Below are positions 15,001 through 21,000 of a stretch of 64,000 nucleotides of DNA, piece by piece. The position numbers are program-made. Every line of letters starts with the position of its first letter. Position 1 is the first letter of the stretch. The stretch is from a virus: UHGV virus genome UHGV-1366603, one strand, 5' to 3'.

Positions 15001-18000
15001 TACGTGACCACTACCGCTTCGCCCACCACATTCTCACTGAAGGCGGTTGTCTACACCATTTATTACCCGTGAAGCAAGACGACGATTACCGGTTAAAAGC
15101 GGCTGAAATCGTTGCTTGTATTTTAGAGAATTAATCACATACCCCTACCTTCGGGTAGGGGGTTATTTAATTTTTTCTCAGATAGATATTACCTTAGTGA
15201 GATTACACAATAACCTCTTTACGACTTGTTCTACAGATTAGGATTAATTACCATGACTTATAATCACAACTCTATTGTTTTAGCAAAACGTAAATTCGGT
15301 CTTCATCTTTCTTACGTGATTCGTCATTTGACAGCGAAAGACATTACACAGCGTGAACTTGCCCAGCTTGCGAAAGTTTCACAATCGGTTATTTCATCTA
15401 TTAAGAACGATCGTAGCGAACGCCTGAGTCTACCGATAATGATGAAGGTTGCTGATGCAGTTCGTCTGAAATACCAGATTACGTTTAATTCCATTAAAGG
15501 GCGTTGCTCAGTAACGGTTCACGTAGAGTCTGCGTTGGACTACGTTGCAAATACGTCCCTTAAACGTACCGCGAAGAATATTCGTTTTGTTACTAACAGC
15601 GCAACACACTAACCAACCTAAAGGAGTAATATCATGGCACCGAGAACTAAGAAAACCGAAGTTAAAGAAACTGTAGAAAAGCCGACTGATAATAAGGAAG
15701 CGGAAGTTAAGCAGACTGGGCCTAACAAGAAACTTGTGCTTATGTCACCCGCCACAGAAATACACGGGGATAAAATCTTAAGTTACACTCCGCGCGCGAG
15801 TTTAACGATCGATATTTACCATTACCCGGTATTCGACCTGTACACGCTTGTCTGTCGACTCGACGATGAGATACTGGCAGTCGTTCCAGGTATCCACAAA
15901 GAAAAACTGCTTACGGGTTCAGTCATTAGCGAGATTTTCCTGCGCTTGATGTTTAAATCAGACGATAAGATGATCAGCCAGATTGCTAGTAAATTGACTG
16001 ACTTCTTTGTTGAGGCTTCAACGTGGTTAGGCTTTCACCCAACGGCTTATTTCGTTTTCGACACCAAAATGTTGTATGCTGAAATGGGCGATAGCGTTAA
16101 ATATCCTATCTTGCTTAATGAAGAAGTCGTTCCTTTTTCCCTTACCAGTCCTAACAAACATCTTCGCTTTCATCCGGCGTTAGAAAGCCTGATTGAATAC
16201 AATCGGTTGGAAAAATATTACGCTTATCATCGCATGTTCTTTGAACTTCTGCGTGATAAATTAAGAGGCAAAGTTCCAGATTCTAGTGCAGCATTCACTA
16301 GTTCTAAGCTTTGGTAGTTTGTAACAAACAGGGAGCTTCGGCTCCCTTTTTCTTTTTACAACTTTTTCTTTTGTTGTGAGGAAAGCCGATAAGGAGTATT
16401 AAAATGGTATATCGTAAAACGATAGAAAGAACCTCTTCTGATTTAACCGTAGGACGCTTAACCCGTAGAGATATTCGCAATCCTCAACTTCAGGCATGTT
16501 TAACGGGCCCTAACGGTGCGGTGATTCGTGAAGCACTGTGCAATACTGAGCTGAATACGTTCTCTTTACAAAAAGGAAAAACAATCCAAGGGTTTATCAT
16601 CACAAAACACATTTACGGTGATCCAACGTTACACTGCTTGTATATGCATGAAATTGTACCTGGGTGTTTGAACAAACTGAGCCTTCTATTGGTACTTGAC
16701 TATACTGGGTTTACGTACCTTAACCGAATTGCCAGGGGCGTGGAAGAAATCGCTGAGCTTAACGATTTAGGGTTTAGACATACCCACACAGCATATCGTT
16801 TAGGTACGCGTAAGCTACTGGATGTCACTTTACCGACGAACGTGAAGAACGTCTCCGGCGACTTCTATAAAGACTTAACCAGAGCACAACGTGAACAGCT
16901 CATGACGTTGTTTGGCACTAGCGTCGTTGAAAACATCAATGCTGACCCTGTAACGCGTTCTCGACAAATAATGCCGCAAGTTGAAACATTGGTGGAATTA
17001 GCGCGGCACGTCAATCACTACACTTACGTTTGGATGGACGGTAATGACGTTGTGGGTGTGGTGCAAGTTAAATCACGCAATCTTAGCGAGTGCGAACTAA
17101 AAGCCATTGCGGTAAGTGAATCACACCGGGGCCGTGGGATTGGGCGTGCGTTGTTGTACCGTGCTTTACAGATTGCTTCGACAACAGCAGCACCGTTAGA
17201 AATAGGCTGTTACAATAACAACCCAGCATTTAGACACCTGGCTGTAGATTTGTTTAAATTCCGTCCCTACGAGTACGAATTTGTTTTAGTGCGCGACGAC
17301 GATGTCGTCAGTTGGGAGCGTCGGAAAAACCGCGTCGAGTTAGTGTTAGGCGACGAAATGTCATCGTTACAAGGCGGAATTAATGCATAAACCAATTATA
17401 AAGTGGATGGGTGGTAAATCACGGATTATCGACACCTTACTACAAGTCTTACCTGAACGTACAACATTCGTTGAACCGTTTGTTGGTGCAGGGTCGGTGT
17501 TTTTGAACACACGTTATAAACGTTACATTCTTGCTGACTCTAACCCCGATTTAATACAGTTGCTGAATGTGGCGAAAGACCAACCTGAAGAACTTATCTT
17601 AAAGTCGAAACCACTATTCGAAGACGGTAACGATTGTATTAAGTATATGGAACGCCGTGAGTTGTTTAATCGCGAAACGGATATGGCTCCGTTAGACCGG
17701 GCAGCAATGTTTCTGTACTTAATGCGTCACGGTTTTAACGGGATGTGTCGTTACAACGGCAGCGGGGGTTTTAACGTTCCGTTTGGTCGCTATCCTAACG
17801 GTGTGTATTACCCGTTAGACGAGATTCGTGGTTGGGCTAAACGTTGTCAAGAACCGGAATACTTAGAAATTGTTTGTGAAGATTTCCGAACAGTTTTAGA
17901 GCGTACACCGGAAGAGAGTGTGATTTACGCAGACCCGCCTTATATACCGCTCTCAGAGACCGCTAAACACGCCCAATACCATCGGAAGGAGTTTTCCCAG

Positions 18001-21000
18001 GCTGACCATCGAGAACTCGCCAGAGCGCTGTTTAAGCAGGTTGAGAGGGGGAATAGCGTTGTGTTGTCCAATGCAGATACGTTACTAACGCGTGAGATTT
18101 ATTACGGGTTCGAATGGCGTTCTGTGGAAGTAGGGCGATACATGGGTGCGTCAGGTGCTGCCCGTAAAACGGTAACGGAATTGTTAGGAGTGCTCTAATG
18201 CGTATAGTGGATATCCACGATTATCGTAATGACCATTTAGCGATTGGTGTCGATGGGAAAATGGTTTCGTTAACCCGCGTACGCAAAGGGTTAATGGAAA
18301 AGGAGATCATTCGGGAGTCCGAAGACCCTACCTTTATCATCCTTTCGAACACTAATCAGTTACAGGGCATCTTTTCAGGGCGTGCTGACGGTAAGATTTT
18401 CTATATGTCCGCAATCGTTGTGTTTGCGAAGAAGAACATTAACTTCGCCCAACTCAAACGTTTGTTAAACGTGAAGATGTTTGATGTCACCTACCCTGCT
18501 AATGACCTAAAACGTCGTGATCAGTTAATGACGTTTTTAGGTATGCAACCAACGTCTATCGATTACGACCTTACGATTACTGAGAAGCCGGAAGTGCGCA
18601 CTGACTTACCTGACGTAGACGATGTTGAATCCTTAACGTTAGAAGAGACGTTTACGATTCCTAAGGTTGTTAATGTCAACCTGGACACGCATTGTTTAGG
18701 GTTGTTAGCCGTAGGTGCAGCAGAAGGGTTGTGTTGTCGTAAAGACGGTAAGGTTGAAGGTATCTTAGTCTATTCGAAAATCAACGAAAAGACGTTTGCC
18801 ACTGAAGGCTTTTTCTATAACGATTGCACTTACGGAAACGCACTACTAACCACGTATTTCCGTATTGCTTATCTGAAAGGCGCAACTGTACGCCTCACGT
18901 TTCCATACACAGCCCCACCGTCTATGGGTGGAGTTGAGGTAGAACCATTAACCGGCCACTTTATCTTTTAAGGATGATGAATGGAAATCAAACGTATTGT
19001 AACCAAAAACAAACAGATTGTTTACGTCGCAGGCGATAACGAATTCTCGGCGGTAATCAACAGCGAAAATGCGCTCATTATCGGTTATCCGGGTAAAGTT
19101 ATTACGCGCAGTCACCAACGTGTGATTGACAAACTTATCGCAAAAGCGAAAGCGCGTGACGGTGTTGGTTCAGTACAAACCCACACGGGGTTAACGCTGG
19201 CCCTCTAGTCAGCAGGTAATATGACCTCTTAACTGGAGACTTTAATAATGAGTGAGACTCTGGATTTTAATCAGCTCGAACAACACGATTTCGACCTCGG
19301 TGTTCGTGATATCGATGCTGATCATGAAACACGTTGTAAAGAGCTGTTTAACCGTTACGGTCAGCTCATCACCGGTGCCTCTGACGACACCGAATTCAGT
19401 TTAGATGAGTTTGAAAAAGTTCTGTCGTGTTTTATCACTGACTGTCTGGCGAAGAAAGCGTTGCTGGTCGAACTGAACTTAGACTCCGTCGAACCTACTG
19501 ATGCTCACGCCGTGTTGAAAGAGTCCATTATCCCAACTGATGAGATTATGGACACGGTAGCCGGTATTCGCGGTACGTTTGAAACTGCCGTAGAAGAATA
19601 CACGGAACAGCTTCGTGAATCAGGACTGACGTTGTGTGCGCCAGCAGGTGAGCCATTACCGTCCGACGAAGAAACTGAAGAAGCGCGTAGTCGCTTAGCG
19701 CGTTATGTTATTACGTCTATCTTGGTAGATGATCGCGAAGAGAATCTGCTATAAGCTGCCCCTCTCTCCGTTTGGAGAGAGGGTGTATTTATTTTTACGC
19801 GTATAGCCGTAGTTATGCACAAGTAAACAAAATTAATTGAGGAAACAATCTGATGTGGTTAAGTGCTATTCACCGTGATTTGCCAAAACGTGACGTGTCG
19901 TTTACTGTTGAGGACGCACCGATTGAGGTAGGCGTCGCTAAATTCGAAAGAATCGAAGAAGGGCAGTTTGTTGTAATGGATGGCAACGACAACGAATTTA
20001 TGTTGTATCATCCAGAAGTGGATACCTCTGAAATTTGTGACGGTGTTCTTTTGTTGTCCTGGCAAAACCAAGAAACTAAAGAATGGATGTGGTGTGTTGC
20101 TAAACCGACAAATGAAGCTGGAACCGCATACGTGTTTGGGGAAATTTATGTCGAACCCGAGCCACACTAATTTCGATATAGCTTCAGCATTGTGTTGTTA
20201 ATGGTCTAAAAAATTTAAGATATATTTCATCTATGTGAGAATTCTCACTTAACTAAATGGAGTAATCTAAAATGGCTAAGATTTACATTGTTGAGAAACG
20301 TGCGGGTAATGTTCTTTCCTATTACGAAGAAGGTAAACCTGAAAAAGTTAAAACACTCAAACTCGACGGGTATGAAGTGAAGAGTTTACGCAAAGGTGTG
20401 AAGATTACCTTTAAAGGTTTGGCTCGCGTAAATAACTTACACATTGTTAAGGCCGATGGTACGATGGCTGCGTTAGCGCCTGTCAGTGCTGCGAAAACGA
20501 CAGCCGGTCGTGGCTGCTACGGTAGCAGTCGTAAGATTTAAGCAGTGCCCCTCTCTCCTAACGGAGAGAGGGTACTTTTATTTTTCTTCGAGGTGCGTGA
20601 TGACAACGGTATTAGTAACAAAGGATTACATTTTAGCTGACCGACTTGTGGACTATGCTGGCACAGTTAAAGAATTGCCCAAACTACATAAACACAAAAA
20701 CAAGTTTGTTTTCTACACTGGGGAACGTGTACTGGACACCGAGTTTTGGAAAATATCAATGACCGCTGTTATAGAAAAATATTTAGACGTGGATAAACGC
20801 AAGGAAGTTGAGCCTTTGCTTGTGGATTTTTTCGAAAAAGAGCGAATATTCGATCAGATTGTCATTTTTACGGCTAGAAAAACTCATTGGCTCACATTAG
20901 TAGCAGGTAAGTTTGAAGATCTTGTAATAAATGAAAATGCGGTTTGGGCAACGGGTTCTGGTGGAGGTTTTGCACGGGCTGCTTGGGCGACAGGAATATC

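What the first reader, a model, noticed from the sequence alone, without database searches (positions are those of the whole stretch)
17383..18198. E. coli-type Dam methyltransferase encoded by the phage
The protein is collinear with host Dam across all motifs. Phage-borne Dam is usually explained as anti-restriction or as a packaging/replication signal modifier; its close similarity to the host enzyme suggests acquisition from an enterobacterial host.
Basis: established knowledge. Interest (0 to 1): 0.35.

Follow-up and report, generated by a model that had tools for sequence, protein, structure and literature searches.

The report
Jumbo-phage Dam methylase with GATC avoidance
The gene is a genuine Dam-type (GATC) DNA adenine methylase, but an old, lineage-specific one carried by a subgroup of nucleus-forming jumbo phages rather than a recent copy of the host gene. 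The phages that carry it have purged GATC sites from their genomes, while Dam-less relatives on the same hosts have not.

Summary
Observation confirmed. Window 17383-18198 (+) is an intact 271-aa ORF, collinear with E. coli Dam (PDB 2G1P, E 5.6e-64). It has the AdoMet motif, the DPPY catalytic motif and all seven EcoDam GATC-contact residues (five identical, two conservative).

Interpretation partly supported. Identity to E. coli Dam is only 43%, and the protein fails NCBI's enterobacterial Dam equivalog cut-off (256 vs 441 bits). The window comes from an uncultured 223-kb human-gut jumbo phage related to SPN3US, phiEaH2 and Asesino (family Chimalliviridae). Its Dam belongs to a jumbo-phage-only clade (169/200 bootstraps) with conserved GNAT-Dam-ORF synteny across at least three genera. 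This points to ancient acquisition and vertical inheritance, and orthologues are already annotated.

Against a codon-preserving expectation, GATC stands at:
- 0.51 in the window
- 0.47 in the whole SPN3US genome
- 0.23-0.24 in the phiEaH2 and Wellington regions
- 0.96-1.19 in Dam-less chimalliviruses on Dam+ hosts (Goslar, PCH45, RAY)

No cognate nuclease was found, and the GATC sites that remain are not positionally conserved. The most likely reading is an orphan GATC methylase that works together with site purging against a GATC-directed nuclease. The gene itself is ordinary; the Dam/GATC coupling deserves an experiment.

The parts
17383..18198 (+). dam gene: 271-aa orphan Dam-family (D12 class, alpha-type order) N6-adenine DNA methyltransferase. 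Predicted target is GATC.
   Evidence: ORF. PF02086 E 1.2e-57. EcoDam 2g1p E 5.6e-64. TIGR00571 at 253.9 bits, above the 114.85 cut-off. PADLOC best model is 'orphan methyltransferase', 288.5 bits. The gene contains 0 GATC against 3.1 expected.
17401..17418 (+). N-terminal KWMGGK segment. K7 is the equivalent of EcoDam K9, which contacts the first G:C pair of GATC.
   Evidence: Alignment, coordinates, role of K9 from PMC4417163.
17467..17502 (+). Motif I, FVEPFVGAGSVF: the AdoMet-binding FxGxG loop.
   Evidence: Identical to EcoDam except for its first residue (F29 for EcoDam L31) in the HMMER alignment. Coordinates.
17710..17793 (+). DNA-recognition segment, residues 110-137. F118, N119, M121, R123, P133 and Y137 correspond to EcoDam Y119, N120, L122, R124, P134 and Y138.
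   Evidence: Alignment, residue check, residue roles from PMC4417163.
17932..17943 (+). Motif IV, the catalytic DPPY tetrapeptide (residues 184-187).
16404..17390 (+). Upstream 328-aa gene. Its C-terminal part is a GNAT acetyltransferase domain and its N-terminal ~190 aa are of unknown function. Its stop codon overlaps the dam start by 8 nt (ATGCATAA), which suggests translational coupling. The adjacency is conserved in SPN3US (gp162) and Wellington (gp132).
   Evidence: PF00583 E 5e-12 on residues 198-279. phrog_8663, unknown function. Synteny. Sequence.
18198..18971 (+). Downstream 257-aa gene of unknown function. Its ATG shares one base with the dam stop codon (TAATG). It is divergent from the syntenic SPN3US gp160 (about 24% identity). 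No nuclease signature was found.
   Evidence: ORF. No Pfam, NCBIfam, PADLOC or PDB-profile hit. phrog_9941, unknown function. AF2 model unusable, pLDDT 33.
14490..15612 (+). Syntenic context upstream of dam: thymidylate kinase (14490-15134) and an HTH DNA-binding protein (15226-15612). The order is the same in SPN3US, phiEaH2 and Wellington.
   Evidence: PF02223 E 2.5e-17. phrog_7126 E 2.3e-33. Annotated loci.
1..64000 (.). Window-wide GATC under-representation: 110 sites, or 1.72 per kb. GATC is the most depleted of the 16 palindromic tetramers.
   Evidence: 110 observed against 246 (mononucleotide) or 262 (Markov) expected, z -12.7. In CDS, 105 against 206 +/- 11 after synonymous-codon shuffling, z -8.9.

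Best explanation
The ORF encodes an active, solitary (orphan) Dam-family methyltransferase that puts N6-methyl groups on the adenine of GATC in the phage's own DNA.

The gene is not a recent host copy. It is an ancestral gene of one subclade of nucleus-forming jumbo phages (Seoulvirus, Erskinevirus, Wellingtonvirus, Machina-like phages and this uncultured gut phage). It sits in a conserved, apparently translationally coupled GNAT-Dam-ORF cassette.

The same subclade has removed half to three quarters of its GATC sites, while Dam-less chimalliviruses on the same Dam+ hosts have not. The most economical mechanism is therefore a two-pronged protection: mask the sites by methylation, and keep them few. 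The target would be a methylation-sensitive, GATC-specific nuclease of MutH, MboI or DpnII type, host- or competitor-encoded, that reaches this lineage's DNA at some stage.

Shown here:
- family membership, catalytic and GATC-contact residues
- the clade and its synteny
- absence of a recognisable nuclease partner
- the GATC statistics

Inferred:
- enzymatic activity and GATC specificity (about 0.9)
- that the enzyme acts on phage DNA, presumably inside the phage nucleus, from which host Dam would be excluded (about 0.6)
- that the selective agent is a nuclease (about 0.4)
For: Enzyme:
- PF02086 E 1.2e-57; EcoDam E 5.6e-64, collinear; TIGR00571 passed.
- DPPY, FxGxG and the EcoDam contact residues K9, N120, R124, P134 and Y138 are identical; Y119->F and L122->M are conservative.

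Orphan status:
- PADLOC best model is 'orphan methyltransferase'.
- Neighbours have no nuclease or defence hit.
- The whole SPN3US RefSeq annotation lists no restriction enzyme.

Ancient lineage gene:
- Tree, synteny.
- In 50,697 phage records, the 53 hits at 49% identity or more are all 197-251-kb jumbo phages.

GATC purging, observed over codon-shuffle expectation:
- window 0.51 (z -8.9)
- SPN3US whole genome 0.47 (z -23.1)
- phiEaH2 0.23
- Wellington 0.24
- Goslar 0.96, PCH45 1.09, RAY 1.19 (whole genomes, no Dam homologue at E<0.1) and phiKZ 1.07

RAY shares its host species, E. amylovora, with phiEaH2 and Wellington.

Remaining GATC sites turn over rather than being conserved: 4-12% are shared with relatives, against 11-19% for control tetramers. 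That fits a per-site cost.

Background: GATC counter-selection in enterobacteriophages has been attributed to MutH acting on under-methylated DNA (PMC5014478).
Against: - No methylation data exist for any of these phages in the searched literature.
- Chimallivirus genomes are described as shielded from host nucleases at all stages (PMC12908238). Dam-less relatives tolerate normal or elevated GATC on MutH+ hosts. A host nuclease therefore has to be specific to this lineage's biology, and that specificity is unexplained.
- All Dam carriers form one clade, so the Dam/avoidance association is a single evolutionary event and not replicated evidence.
- phiEaH2 and Wellington were sampled over only 41 kb each, and phiKZ over 50 kb.
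- No nuclease candidate was identified.
Confidence: 0.5

Rival explanations
1. The Dam is the modification half of a phage-borne GATC restriction-modification pair. For example, a nuclease imported into phage nuclei could destroy co-infecting, unmethylated, GATC-rich chimalliviruses or other invaders. GATC avoidance would then be the usual self-restriction footprint of a genome that carries the cognate nuclease.
For: - Recognition-site avoidance is typical of genomes that carry the cognate R-M system, not of genomes with orphan methylases (theme of PMC4687349, listed).
- Avoidance tracks Dam carriage, not the host.
- GATC-rich, Dam-less RAY shares E. amylovora with the GATC-poor Dam carriers.
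- Inter-chimallivirus competition by imported nucleases is a recognised theme (keywords of PMC12908238).
- DpnM, an R-M-associated enzyme, is a close family member (E 5.5e-41).
- Many ORFs specific to the Dam-carrying clade have unknown function.
Against: - No nuclease or restriction domain in the coupled neighbours or in ten further clade-specific ORFs (Pfam, NCBIfam, PADLOC).
- No restriction enzyme named in the full SPN3US RefSeq annotation.
- PADLOC scores the orphan-MTase model above the type II MTase model.
- Only 64 kb of this phage could be examined.
Confidence: 0.12
2. Methylated GATC is a regulatory or packaging signal, as at the P1 pac site or in Dam-controlled promoters. The methylase exists to mark a few functional sites, and other GATCs are removed to avoid spurious signalling or SeqA-type binding to hemimethylated DNA.
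For: - P1 needs Dam methylation of pac, and its own methylase is essential in dam- hosts (PMC12707154).
- The gene lies in a conserved cassette next to an HTH protein and nucleotide-metabolism genes.
- Avoidance appears only where the phage itself methylates.
Against: - Residual GATC sites in aligned orthologous coding DNA are less conserved than control tetramers.
- No marked clustering: six pairs within 25 bp against about 4.6 expected (my own count from the positions listed).
- Non-coding DNA is not enriched: 5 sites in 3.7 kb in the window and 1.1 per kb in SPN3US.
- Intergenic alignment across genera was not possible.
Confidence: 0.15
3. The enzyme acts on the host chromosome rather than on phage DNA. 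Over-methylation would erase hemimethylated GATC and so disable MutH-directed repair and SeqA sequestration as part of host takeover.
For: Dam over-production is mutagenic and perturbs repair in E. coli (PMC5014478 discussion). If the enzyme is not imported into the phage nucleus, the host chromosome is the only substrate it would meet.
Against: It does not explain why the phage genome avoids GATC. Nothing in the sequence speaks to localisation. Many Dam-less chimalliviruses manage on the same hosts.
Confidence: 0.1
4. One reading: a recent capture of the enterobacterial host's housekeeping dam.
For: EcoDam-type rather than T4-type architecture, and the best solved-structure match is E. coli Dam. 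The relatives' hosts are Enterobacterales.
Against: - 43% identity.
- Fails the equivalog cut-off, 256 against 441 bits.
- Monophyletic jumbo-phage clade with E. coli Dam outside it.
- Conserved synteny across genera whose Dams are only about 50% identical.
- GC content of the gene region (about 0.44) is the same as its surroundings.
Confidence: 0.04

Closest known systems
Dam orthologues of SPN3US-like jumbo phages (SPN3US ACQ60_gp161 / YP_009153399, phiEaH2 AFQ96573, Asesino, Wellington gp133)
   Same: Same gene in the same cassette (GNAT-Dam-hypothetical, downstream of thymidylate kinase and HTH). Identity is 51-74% aa. These genes are already annotated 'DNA adenine methylase'.
   Different: There is no DNA-level (megablast) match to any of 50,697 phage records. 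The host phage is therefore a new species or genus, known only from about 223-kb human-gut and Logan contigs. One of the two downstream paralogous ORFs present in SPN3US and phiEaH2 is missing here.
E. coli Dam (EcoDam, PDB 2G1P/4RTJ), orphan GATC methylase
   Same: Collinear over residues 3-269. Same motif order, DPPY, FxGxG, and the GATC-contact residues K9, N120, R124, P134 and Y138 identical. Solitary, like EcoDam.
   Different: - 43% identity, below the NCBI equivalog threshold.
- Y119->F and L122->M.
- Lacks EcoDam's roughly 10-residue C-terminal tail.
- Sits in a virus whose genome avoids GATC, whereas from general knowledge E. coli's GATC frequency is about as expected.
Phage T4 Dam and P1 Dam (Dmt)
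   Same: Phage-encoded solitary GATC adenine methylases of the same D12 class. The P1 enzyme serves packaging, and the in vivo role of the T4 enzyme is unclear (PMC12707154).
   Different: T4 Dam is only distantly related (E about 1e-7, about 25% identity). Neither phage replicates in a proteinaceous nucleus. I did not test GATC content in T4 or P1.
M1.DpnII (DpnM, PDB 2DPM), Dam-family methylase of a GATC R-M system
   Same: Same family and the same GATC target; E 5.5e-41 over the full length.
   Different: DpnM has an adjacent restriction enzyme. No partner is detectable here.
GATC counter-selection in enterobacteriophages (McClelland 1984; Deschavanne & Radman 1991; phiX174 work, PMC5014478)
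   Same: Strong GATC under-representation in phages of Dam+/MutH+ hosts.
   Different: The classical cases are phages that rely on host Dam. Here the avoidance occurs in phages with their own Dam, and is absent from Dam-less relatives on the same hosts.

Membership tests
D12-class N6-adenine DNA methyltransferases (Pfam PF02086) | Score above the Pfam gathering threshold across the whole domain | tested here: met
   195.9 bits against a cut-off of 22, profile positions 1-249 of 253
Dam family (NCBIfam TIGR00571, subfamily model) | Score above the curated cut-off | tested here: met
   253.9 bits against 114.85
Enterobacterial housekeeping Dam (NCBIfam NF008152 / PRK10904, equivalog) | Score above the equivalog cut-off | tested here: not met
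   255.7 bits against a cut-off of 441. 43.3% identity to EcoDam. Outside the clade in the tree.
Dam family | Catalytic motif IV (D/N)PP(Y/F) and AdoMet-binding motif I FxGxG, in alpha-type order (motif I before motif IV) | tested here: met
   FVGAGS within residues 29-40; DPPY at 184-187; collinear with EcoDam
GATC-specific Dam (EcoDam type) | Base-contact residues K9, Y119, N120, L122, R124, P134 and Y138 of EcoDam | tested here: met
   K7, N119, R123, P133 and Y137 identical. F118 is aromatic, and in the clade relatives retrieved this position is Y or F. M121 is hydrophobic. Roles from PMC4417163.
GATC-specific Dam | Demonstrated N6-methylation of GATC | not testable with these tools
   Needs DpnI/MboI digestion or 6mA calling on virion DNA. 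No such data were found in the searched papers.
Orphan (solitary) methyltransferase | No cognate restriction endonuclease encoded with it | tested here: inconclusive
   No nuclease domain in flanking or clade-specific ORFs. None annotated in whole SPN3US. PADLOC best model is an orphan MTase. About 160 kb of this phage was not examined, and many ORFs are of unknown function.
Chimalliviridae (the genome carrying the gene) | Chimallin nuclear-shell gene, PhuZ and split multisubunit RNA polymerases | not tested
   None of these lies in the 64-kb window. Assignment rests on 50-85% aa identity and synteny with Seoulvirus and Erskinevirus, which NCBI taxonomy places in Chimalliviridae.

The most novel reading that the evidence does not exclude
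Within nucleus-forming phages, carrying a Dam and purging GATC are two halves of one adaptation to a GATC-directed nuclease that operates despite the EPI vesicle and the phage nucleus. That nuclease could be an unrecognised phage-encoded enzyme, making this an R-M-like weapon against co-infecting, unmethylated chimalliviruses such as RAY. It could instead be a host factor that breaches the compartment in this lineage. Either case would mean the 'completely shielded genome' picture has a lineage-specific exception, and one that can be read from sequence alone.
Probability: 0.2. Interest if true: 0.7.

Novelty: new member of a known kind. Interest (0 to 1): 0.38.

Why it matters
By itself the gene is a routine annotation: a Dam orthologue already labelled in SPN3US-like phages.

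Its context is what matters. Chimalliviruses are thought to need no DNA modification, because their genomes are enclosed from injection to packaging. A 2025 review of their biology does not mention methylation at all.

Against that picture, one enterobacterial subclade has kept a Dam for a long time. It has also removed 50-77% of its expected GATC sites, while Dam-less relatives on E. coli, Serratia and the very same Erwinia host show none of this.

This is a cheap, sequence-level hint that something GATC-specific acts on these genomes. The phages needed to test it are cultured (SPN3US, phiEaH2, RAY, Goslar). It also corrects the idea that the gene reflects recent host-to-phage transfer.

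Tried and rejected
- Megablast of 6 kb around the gene against phage records: no match.
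- The 1001-aa tail protein (26094-29099) as a family marker for finding comparator chimalliviruses: rejected. It is a widely exchanged tail spike found in rV5-like, 50-kb and 85-kb phages.
- Biopython NJ with bootstraps timed out. It was replaced by a numpy NJ. The tree is distance-based only, because no ML software was available.
- Downstream ORF257 as a candidate nuclease:
  - no Pfam, NCBIfam or PADLOC hit;
  - a profile built from nine syntenic homologues found nothing in PDB sequences at E<=10;
  - the AlphaFold model had pLDDT 33 (15 near-identical sequences) and is unusable, so no fold search was run.
  Its LYxxLGF-like pattern suggested a degenerate GNAT fold to me, but that is an impression and not a result.
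- 'Retained GATCs are conserved signals': tested by codon-threaded alignment to SPN3US, phiEaH2 and Wellington, and not supported.
- MutH-like gene in SPN3US or the window: no tblastn hit. The T4 sequence behaved as predicts, but MutH is unverified. The E. coli Dam query was verified against the printed PDB alignment.
- Literature: no paper in the library links SPN3US-type phages with GATC content or Dam function.

Full report
**1. Observation**

The ORF listing gives an ATG-initiated ORF of 271 aa at exactly 17383-18198 (+). Its start overlaps the stop of the upstream 328-aa ORF by 8 nt (…ATGCATAA…). Its stop shares one base with the ATG of the downstream 257-aa ORF (TAATG).

The protein matches Pfam PF02086 (D12-class N6-adenine DNA methyltransferase) at E 1.2e-57 over the whole profile. 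Among solved structures the best matches are:
- E. coli Dam, E 5.6e-64, one stretch, 3-269 against 5-266
- DpnM, 5.5e-41
- T4 Dam, about 1e-7

The 'E. coli-type, collinear across all motifs' observation is therefore correct. Identity to EcoDam is 43.3%.

**2. Is it a working GATC methylase?**

The motif I loop (FVEPFVGAGSVF, residues 29-40) and the catalytic DPPY (184-187) are intact.

The EcoDam residues that read GATC are R124, Y119, N120, L122/P134 and K9/Y138, as described in PMC4417163. They align with R123, F118, N119, M121/P133 and K7/Y137. Five are identical and two are conservative.

Formal family tests:
- NCBIfam's Dam-family model is passed (253.9 against 114.85 bits).
- The equivalog model for the enterobacterial housekeeping enzyme is not passed (255.7 against 441 bits).
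- PHROGs gives 'DNA methyltransferase' (phrog_56, 3e-84).
- PADLOC's best model is 'orphan methyltransferase' (288.5 bits), ahead of a type II R-M methylase model (263 bits).

Activity and specificity are inferred, not shown.

**3. What genome is this?**

There is no megablast match in 50,697 phage records. At protein level, the Dam is 73.6% identical to phiEaH2/Stratton, 70.7% to Asesino and 67% to the SPN3US group. Many neighbouring ORFs are 50-85% identical to those phages.

NCBI taxonomy places Seoulvirus and Erskinevirus in Chimalliviridae, the nucleus-forming jumbo phages.

The exact protein is encoded on a 223,427-bp contig from a human gut metagenome (ERZ918879). Near-identical genes occur on other contigs of about 224 kb, one of them from a Shigella sonnei assembly. 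A tail-fibre segment is 74% identical to E. coli phage Goslar. The host is therefore probably Escherichia or Shigella, but this is an inference.

**4. Origin of the gene**

The 5.8-billion-protein search shows a gap. Homologues of 99, 82, 71, 67 … down to about 50% identity all sit on jumbo-phage-sized contigs or named jumbo phages. Bacterial proteins start at 48% or below: a Pectobacterium atrosepticum 'phage DNA adenine methylase', Dickeya, Brenneria, Shewanella and Plesiomonas.

In the phage collection, the 53 records at 49% identity or more are all 197-251-kb phages of Erwinia, Salmonella, Escherichia and Proteus. The next hits (42% or below) are 30-kb temperate phages.

I built an NJ tree from 217 sequences, 257 columns and 200 bootstraps.
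- The query/SPN3US/phiEaH2 clade is recovered in 194/200 replicates.
- The whole jumbo-phage Dam clade, including the Caitlin, SNUABM8 and SNUABM11 types, is recovered in 169/200.
- The sister group (Shewanella and Plesiomonas MAG sequences) is weakly supported (94/200).
- E. coli Dam lies outside.

The GNAT-Dam-hypothetical cassette, downstream of thymidylate kinase and an HTH gene, is present in SPN3US and Wellington. phiEaH2 keeps the thymidylate kinase-HTH-Dam-hypothetical order but has no annotated or tblastn-detectable counterpart of the 328-aa GNAT gene next to dam.

The conclusion is one old acquisition from gammaproteobacterial Dam stock, followed by vertical descent. The 'close similarity suggests acquisition from an enterobacterial host' part of the finding is only weakly true.

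**5.

The window has 110 GATC sites, against 246 (mononucleotide) or 262 (maximal-order Markov) expected. The z-score is -12.7, the most extreme of all 16 palindromic tetramers. The dam gene itself has none, against 3.1 expected.

I then shuffled synonymous codons, which keeps every protein sequence and the overall codon usage. Coding GATC came out at 105 against 206 ± 11.

Dam-carrying relatives (observed against shuffle expectation):

| Genome | Observed vs expected | Ratio |
|---|---|---|
| SPN3US, whole genome | 473 vs 1013 ± 23 | 0.47 (z -23.1) |
| phiEaH2, 41 kb | – | 0.23 |
| Wellington, 41 kb | – | 0.24 |

Chimalliviruses without any Dam homologue (tblastn with this Dam, EcoDam and T4 Dam gave nothing below E 0.18, and no plausible (D/N/S)PP(Y/F) ORF was found):

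| Genome | Host | Ratio |
|---|---|---|
| Goslar, whole genome | E. coli | 0.96 |
| PCH45, whole genome | Serratia | 1.09 |
| RAY, whole genome | E. amylovora | 1.19 |
| phiKZ, 50 kb | Pseudomonas (Dam-less, from general knowledge) | 1.07 |

These genomes show no avoidance. RAY infects the same species as phiEaH2 and Wellington, yet carries 6.8 GATC per kb against their 0.9-1.0.

Caveat: all Dam carriers belong to one clade, so this is a single evolutionary association.

**6. What could link Dam and GATC purging?**

*(a) Retained signal sites.* In codon-threaded alignments of 23-31 orthologue pairs, only 4-12% of the window's GATCs are GATC in the relative. For the other 23 permutations of G, A, T and C the figure is 11-19%. 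There is no obvious clustering (positions) and no intergenic enrichment. This reading is not supported, and the sites look individually deleterious.

*(b) A cognate nuclease.*
- The coupled neighbours and ten further clade-specific ORFs have no nuclease or defence-system domain.
- The SPN3US RefSeq annotation names no restriction enzyme.
- There is no MutH-like hit.
- The downstream ORF could not be modelled (pLDDT 33).

This reading is not supported either, but it is not excluded, because most clade-specific ORFs are of unknown function.

*(c) A shared external pressure.* Classical work attributes GATC counter-selection in enterobacteriophages to MutH acting on under-methylated DNA (PMC5014478). 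Phage methylases are commonly read as protective, with P1's packaging requirement as the alternative precedent (PMC12707154).

I favour masking plus purging against a methylation-sensitive GATC nuclease. The difficulty is that chimallivirus genomes are described as shielded at all stages (PMC12908238), and Dam-less relatives show no such pressure. The review does not mention methylation at all, and I found no paper on GATC content or Dam function in these phages.

**7. Comparison and novelty**

The gene is a new member of a known, already annotated orthologue group (SPN3US gp161 and others). It belongs to the Dam family but is not an equivalog of host Dam.

The gene as such is ordinary. The coupling between phage-borne Dam and GATC avoidance inside a family thought not to need DNA masking appears unreported in the searched library, and it can be tested with cultured phages. 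I score overall interest at 0.38. The most novel reading not excluded is a GATC-directed nuclease conflict reaching or operating within phage nuclei; I give it about 0.2 probability and 0.7 interest if true.

**8. Limits**

- The tree is distance-based.
- Three comparators were sampled only partially.
- Gene sets for the shuffles came from a simple longest-ORF caller.
- Only 64 kb of the roughly 223-kb genome was available.

Noticed in passing
window 1-64000; L002+L022-L026 (SPN3US); L001; L015; L005-L021: GATC is the most depleted palindromic tetramer in every Dam-carrying chimallivirus examined (0.23-0.51 of codon-aware expectation). It is at or above expectation in the Dam-less Goslar, PCH45, RAY and phiKZ.
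   Followed up: yes
L016-L021 (RAY, whole genome) and L006+L011-L014 (PCH45, whole genome): GATC is significantly enriched over codon-aware expectation in these Dam-less chimalliviruses: RAY 1.19 (z +10.5) and PCH45 1.09 (z +4.2). This is unexplained.
   Followed up: no
window 49772-51094 (-) and 51078-52001 (-): Two adjacent, overlapping radical-SAM/4Fe-4S ORFs (PF04055, E 3e-15 and 6e-14). They appear to correspond to SPN3US gp103/gp102, annotated 'radical SAM domain-containing protein', although direct homology was not checked. The function in a jumbo phage is unknown; a nucleotide or DNA modification role is possible.
   Followed up: partly
window 8430-8909, 12374-12841, 16404-17390: Three GNAT-type acetyltransferase genes lie within 9 kb upstream of dam. 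The last one carries an extra ~190-aa N-terminal domain of unknown function and overlaps the dam start codon. The downstream ORF 18198-18971 also looked GNAT-like by eye, but no tool confirmed it.
   Followed up: partly
window 26094-29099 and 29120-33643: The tail spike and tail fibre genes are mosaic. The 1001-aa protein has 27-57% homologues in many unrelated phage groups. The 1507-aa fibre (Gp34_trimer plus Peptidase_S74 chaperone domain) has a segment 74% identical to E. coli phage Goslar. Together with a near-identical contig in a Shigella sonnei assembly (P0278), this points to an Escherichia or Shigella host.
   Followed up: partly
window 15634-16317, 20486-22507, 23681-24604, 33643-34954, 36379-38208: These blocks of small ORFs have no tblastn homologue in the syntenic 41-kb regions of SPN3US, phiEaH2 or Wellington. 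They are likely accessory or hypervariable islands between conserved genes.
   Followed up: no
window 1-64000: CTAG (40 sites, O/E 0.36, z -8.1) and AATT (O/E 0.75, z -7.4) are also under-represented. AATT is likewise the second most depleted palindrome in SPN3US (z -12.4).
   Followed up: no
window 18198-19208 compared with L002 20823-22448 and L001 20829-22462: SPN3US and phiEaH2 have two ORFs of about 260 aa after dam, which align only weakly with each other. This phage has only one, so a gene was lost or gained directly downstream of dam.
   Followed up: partly
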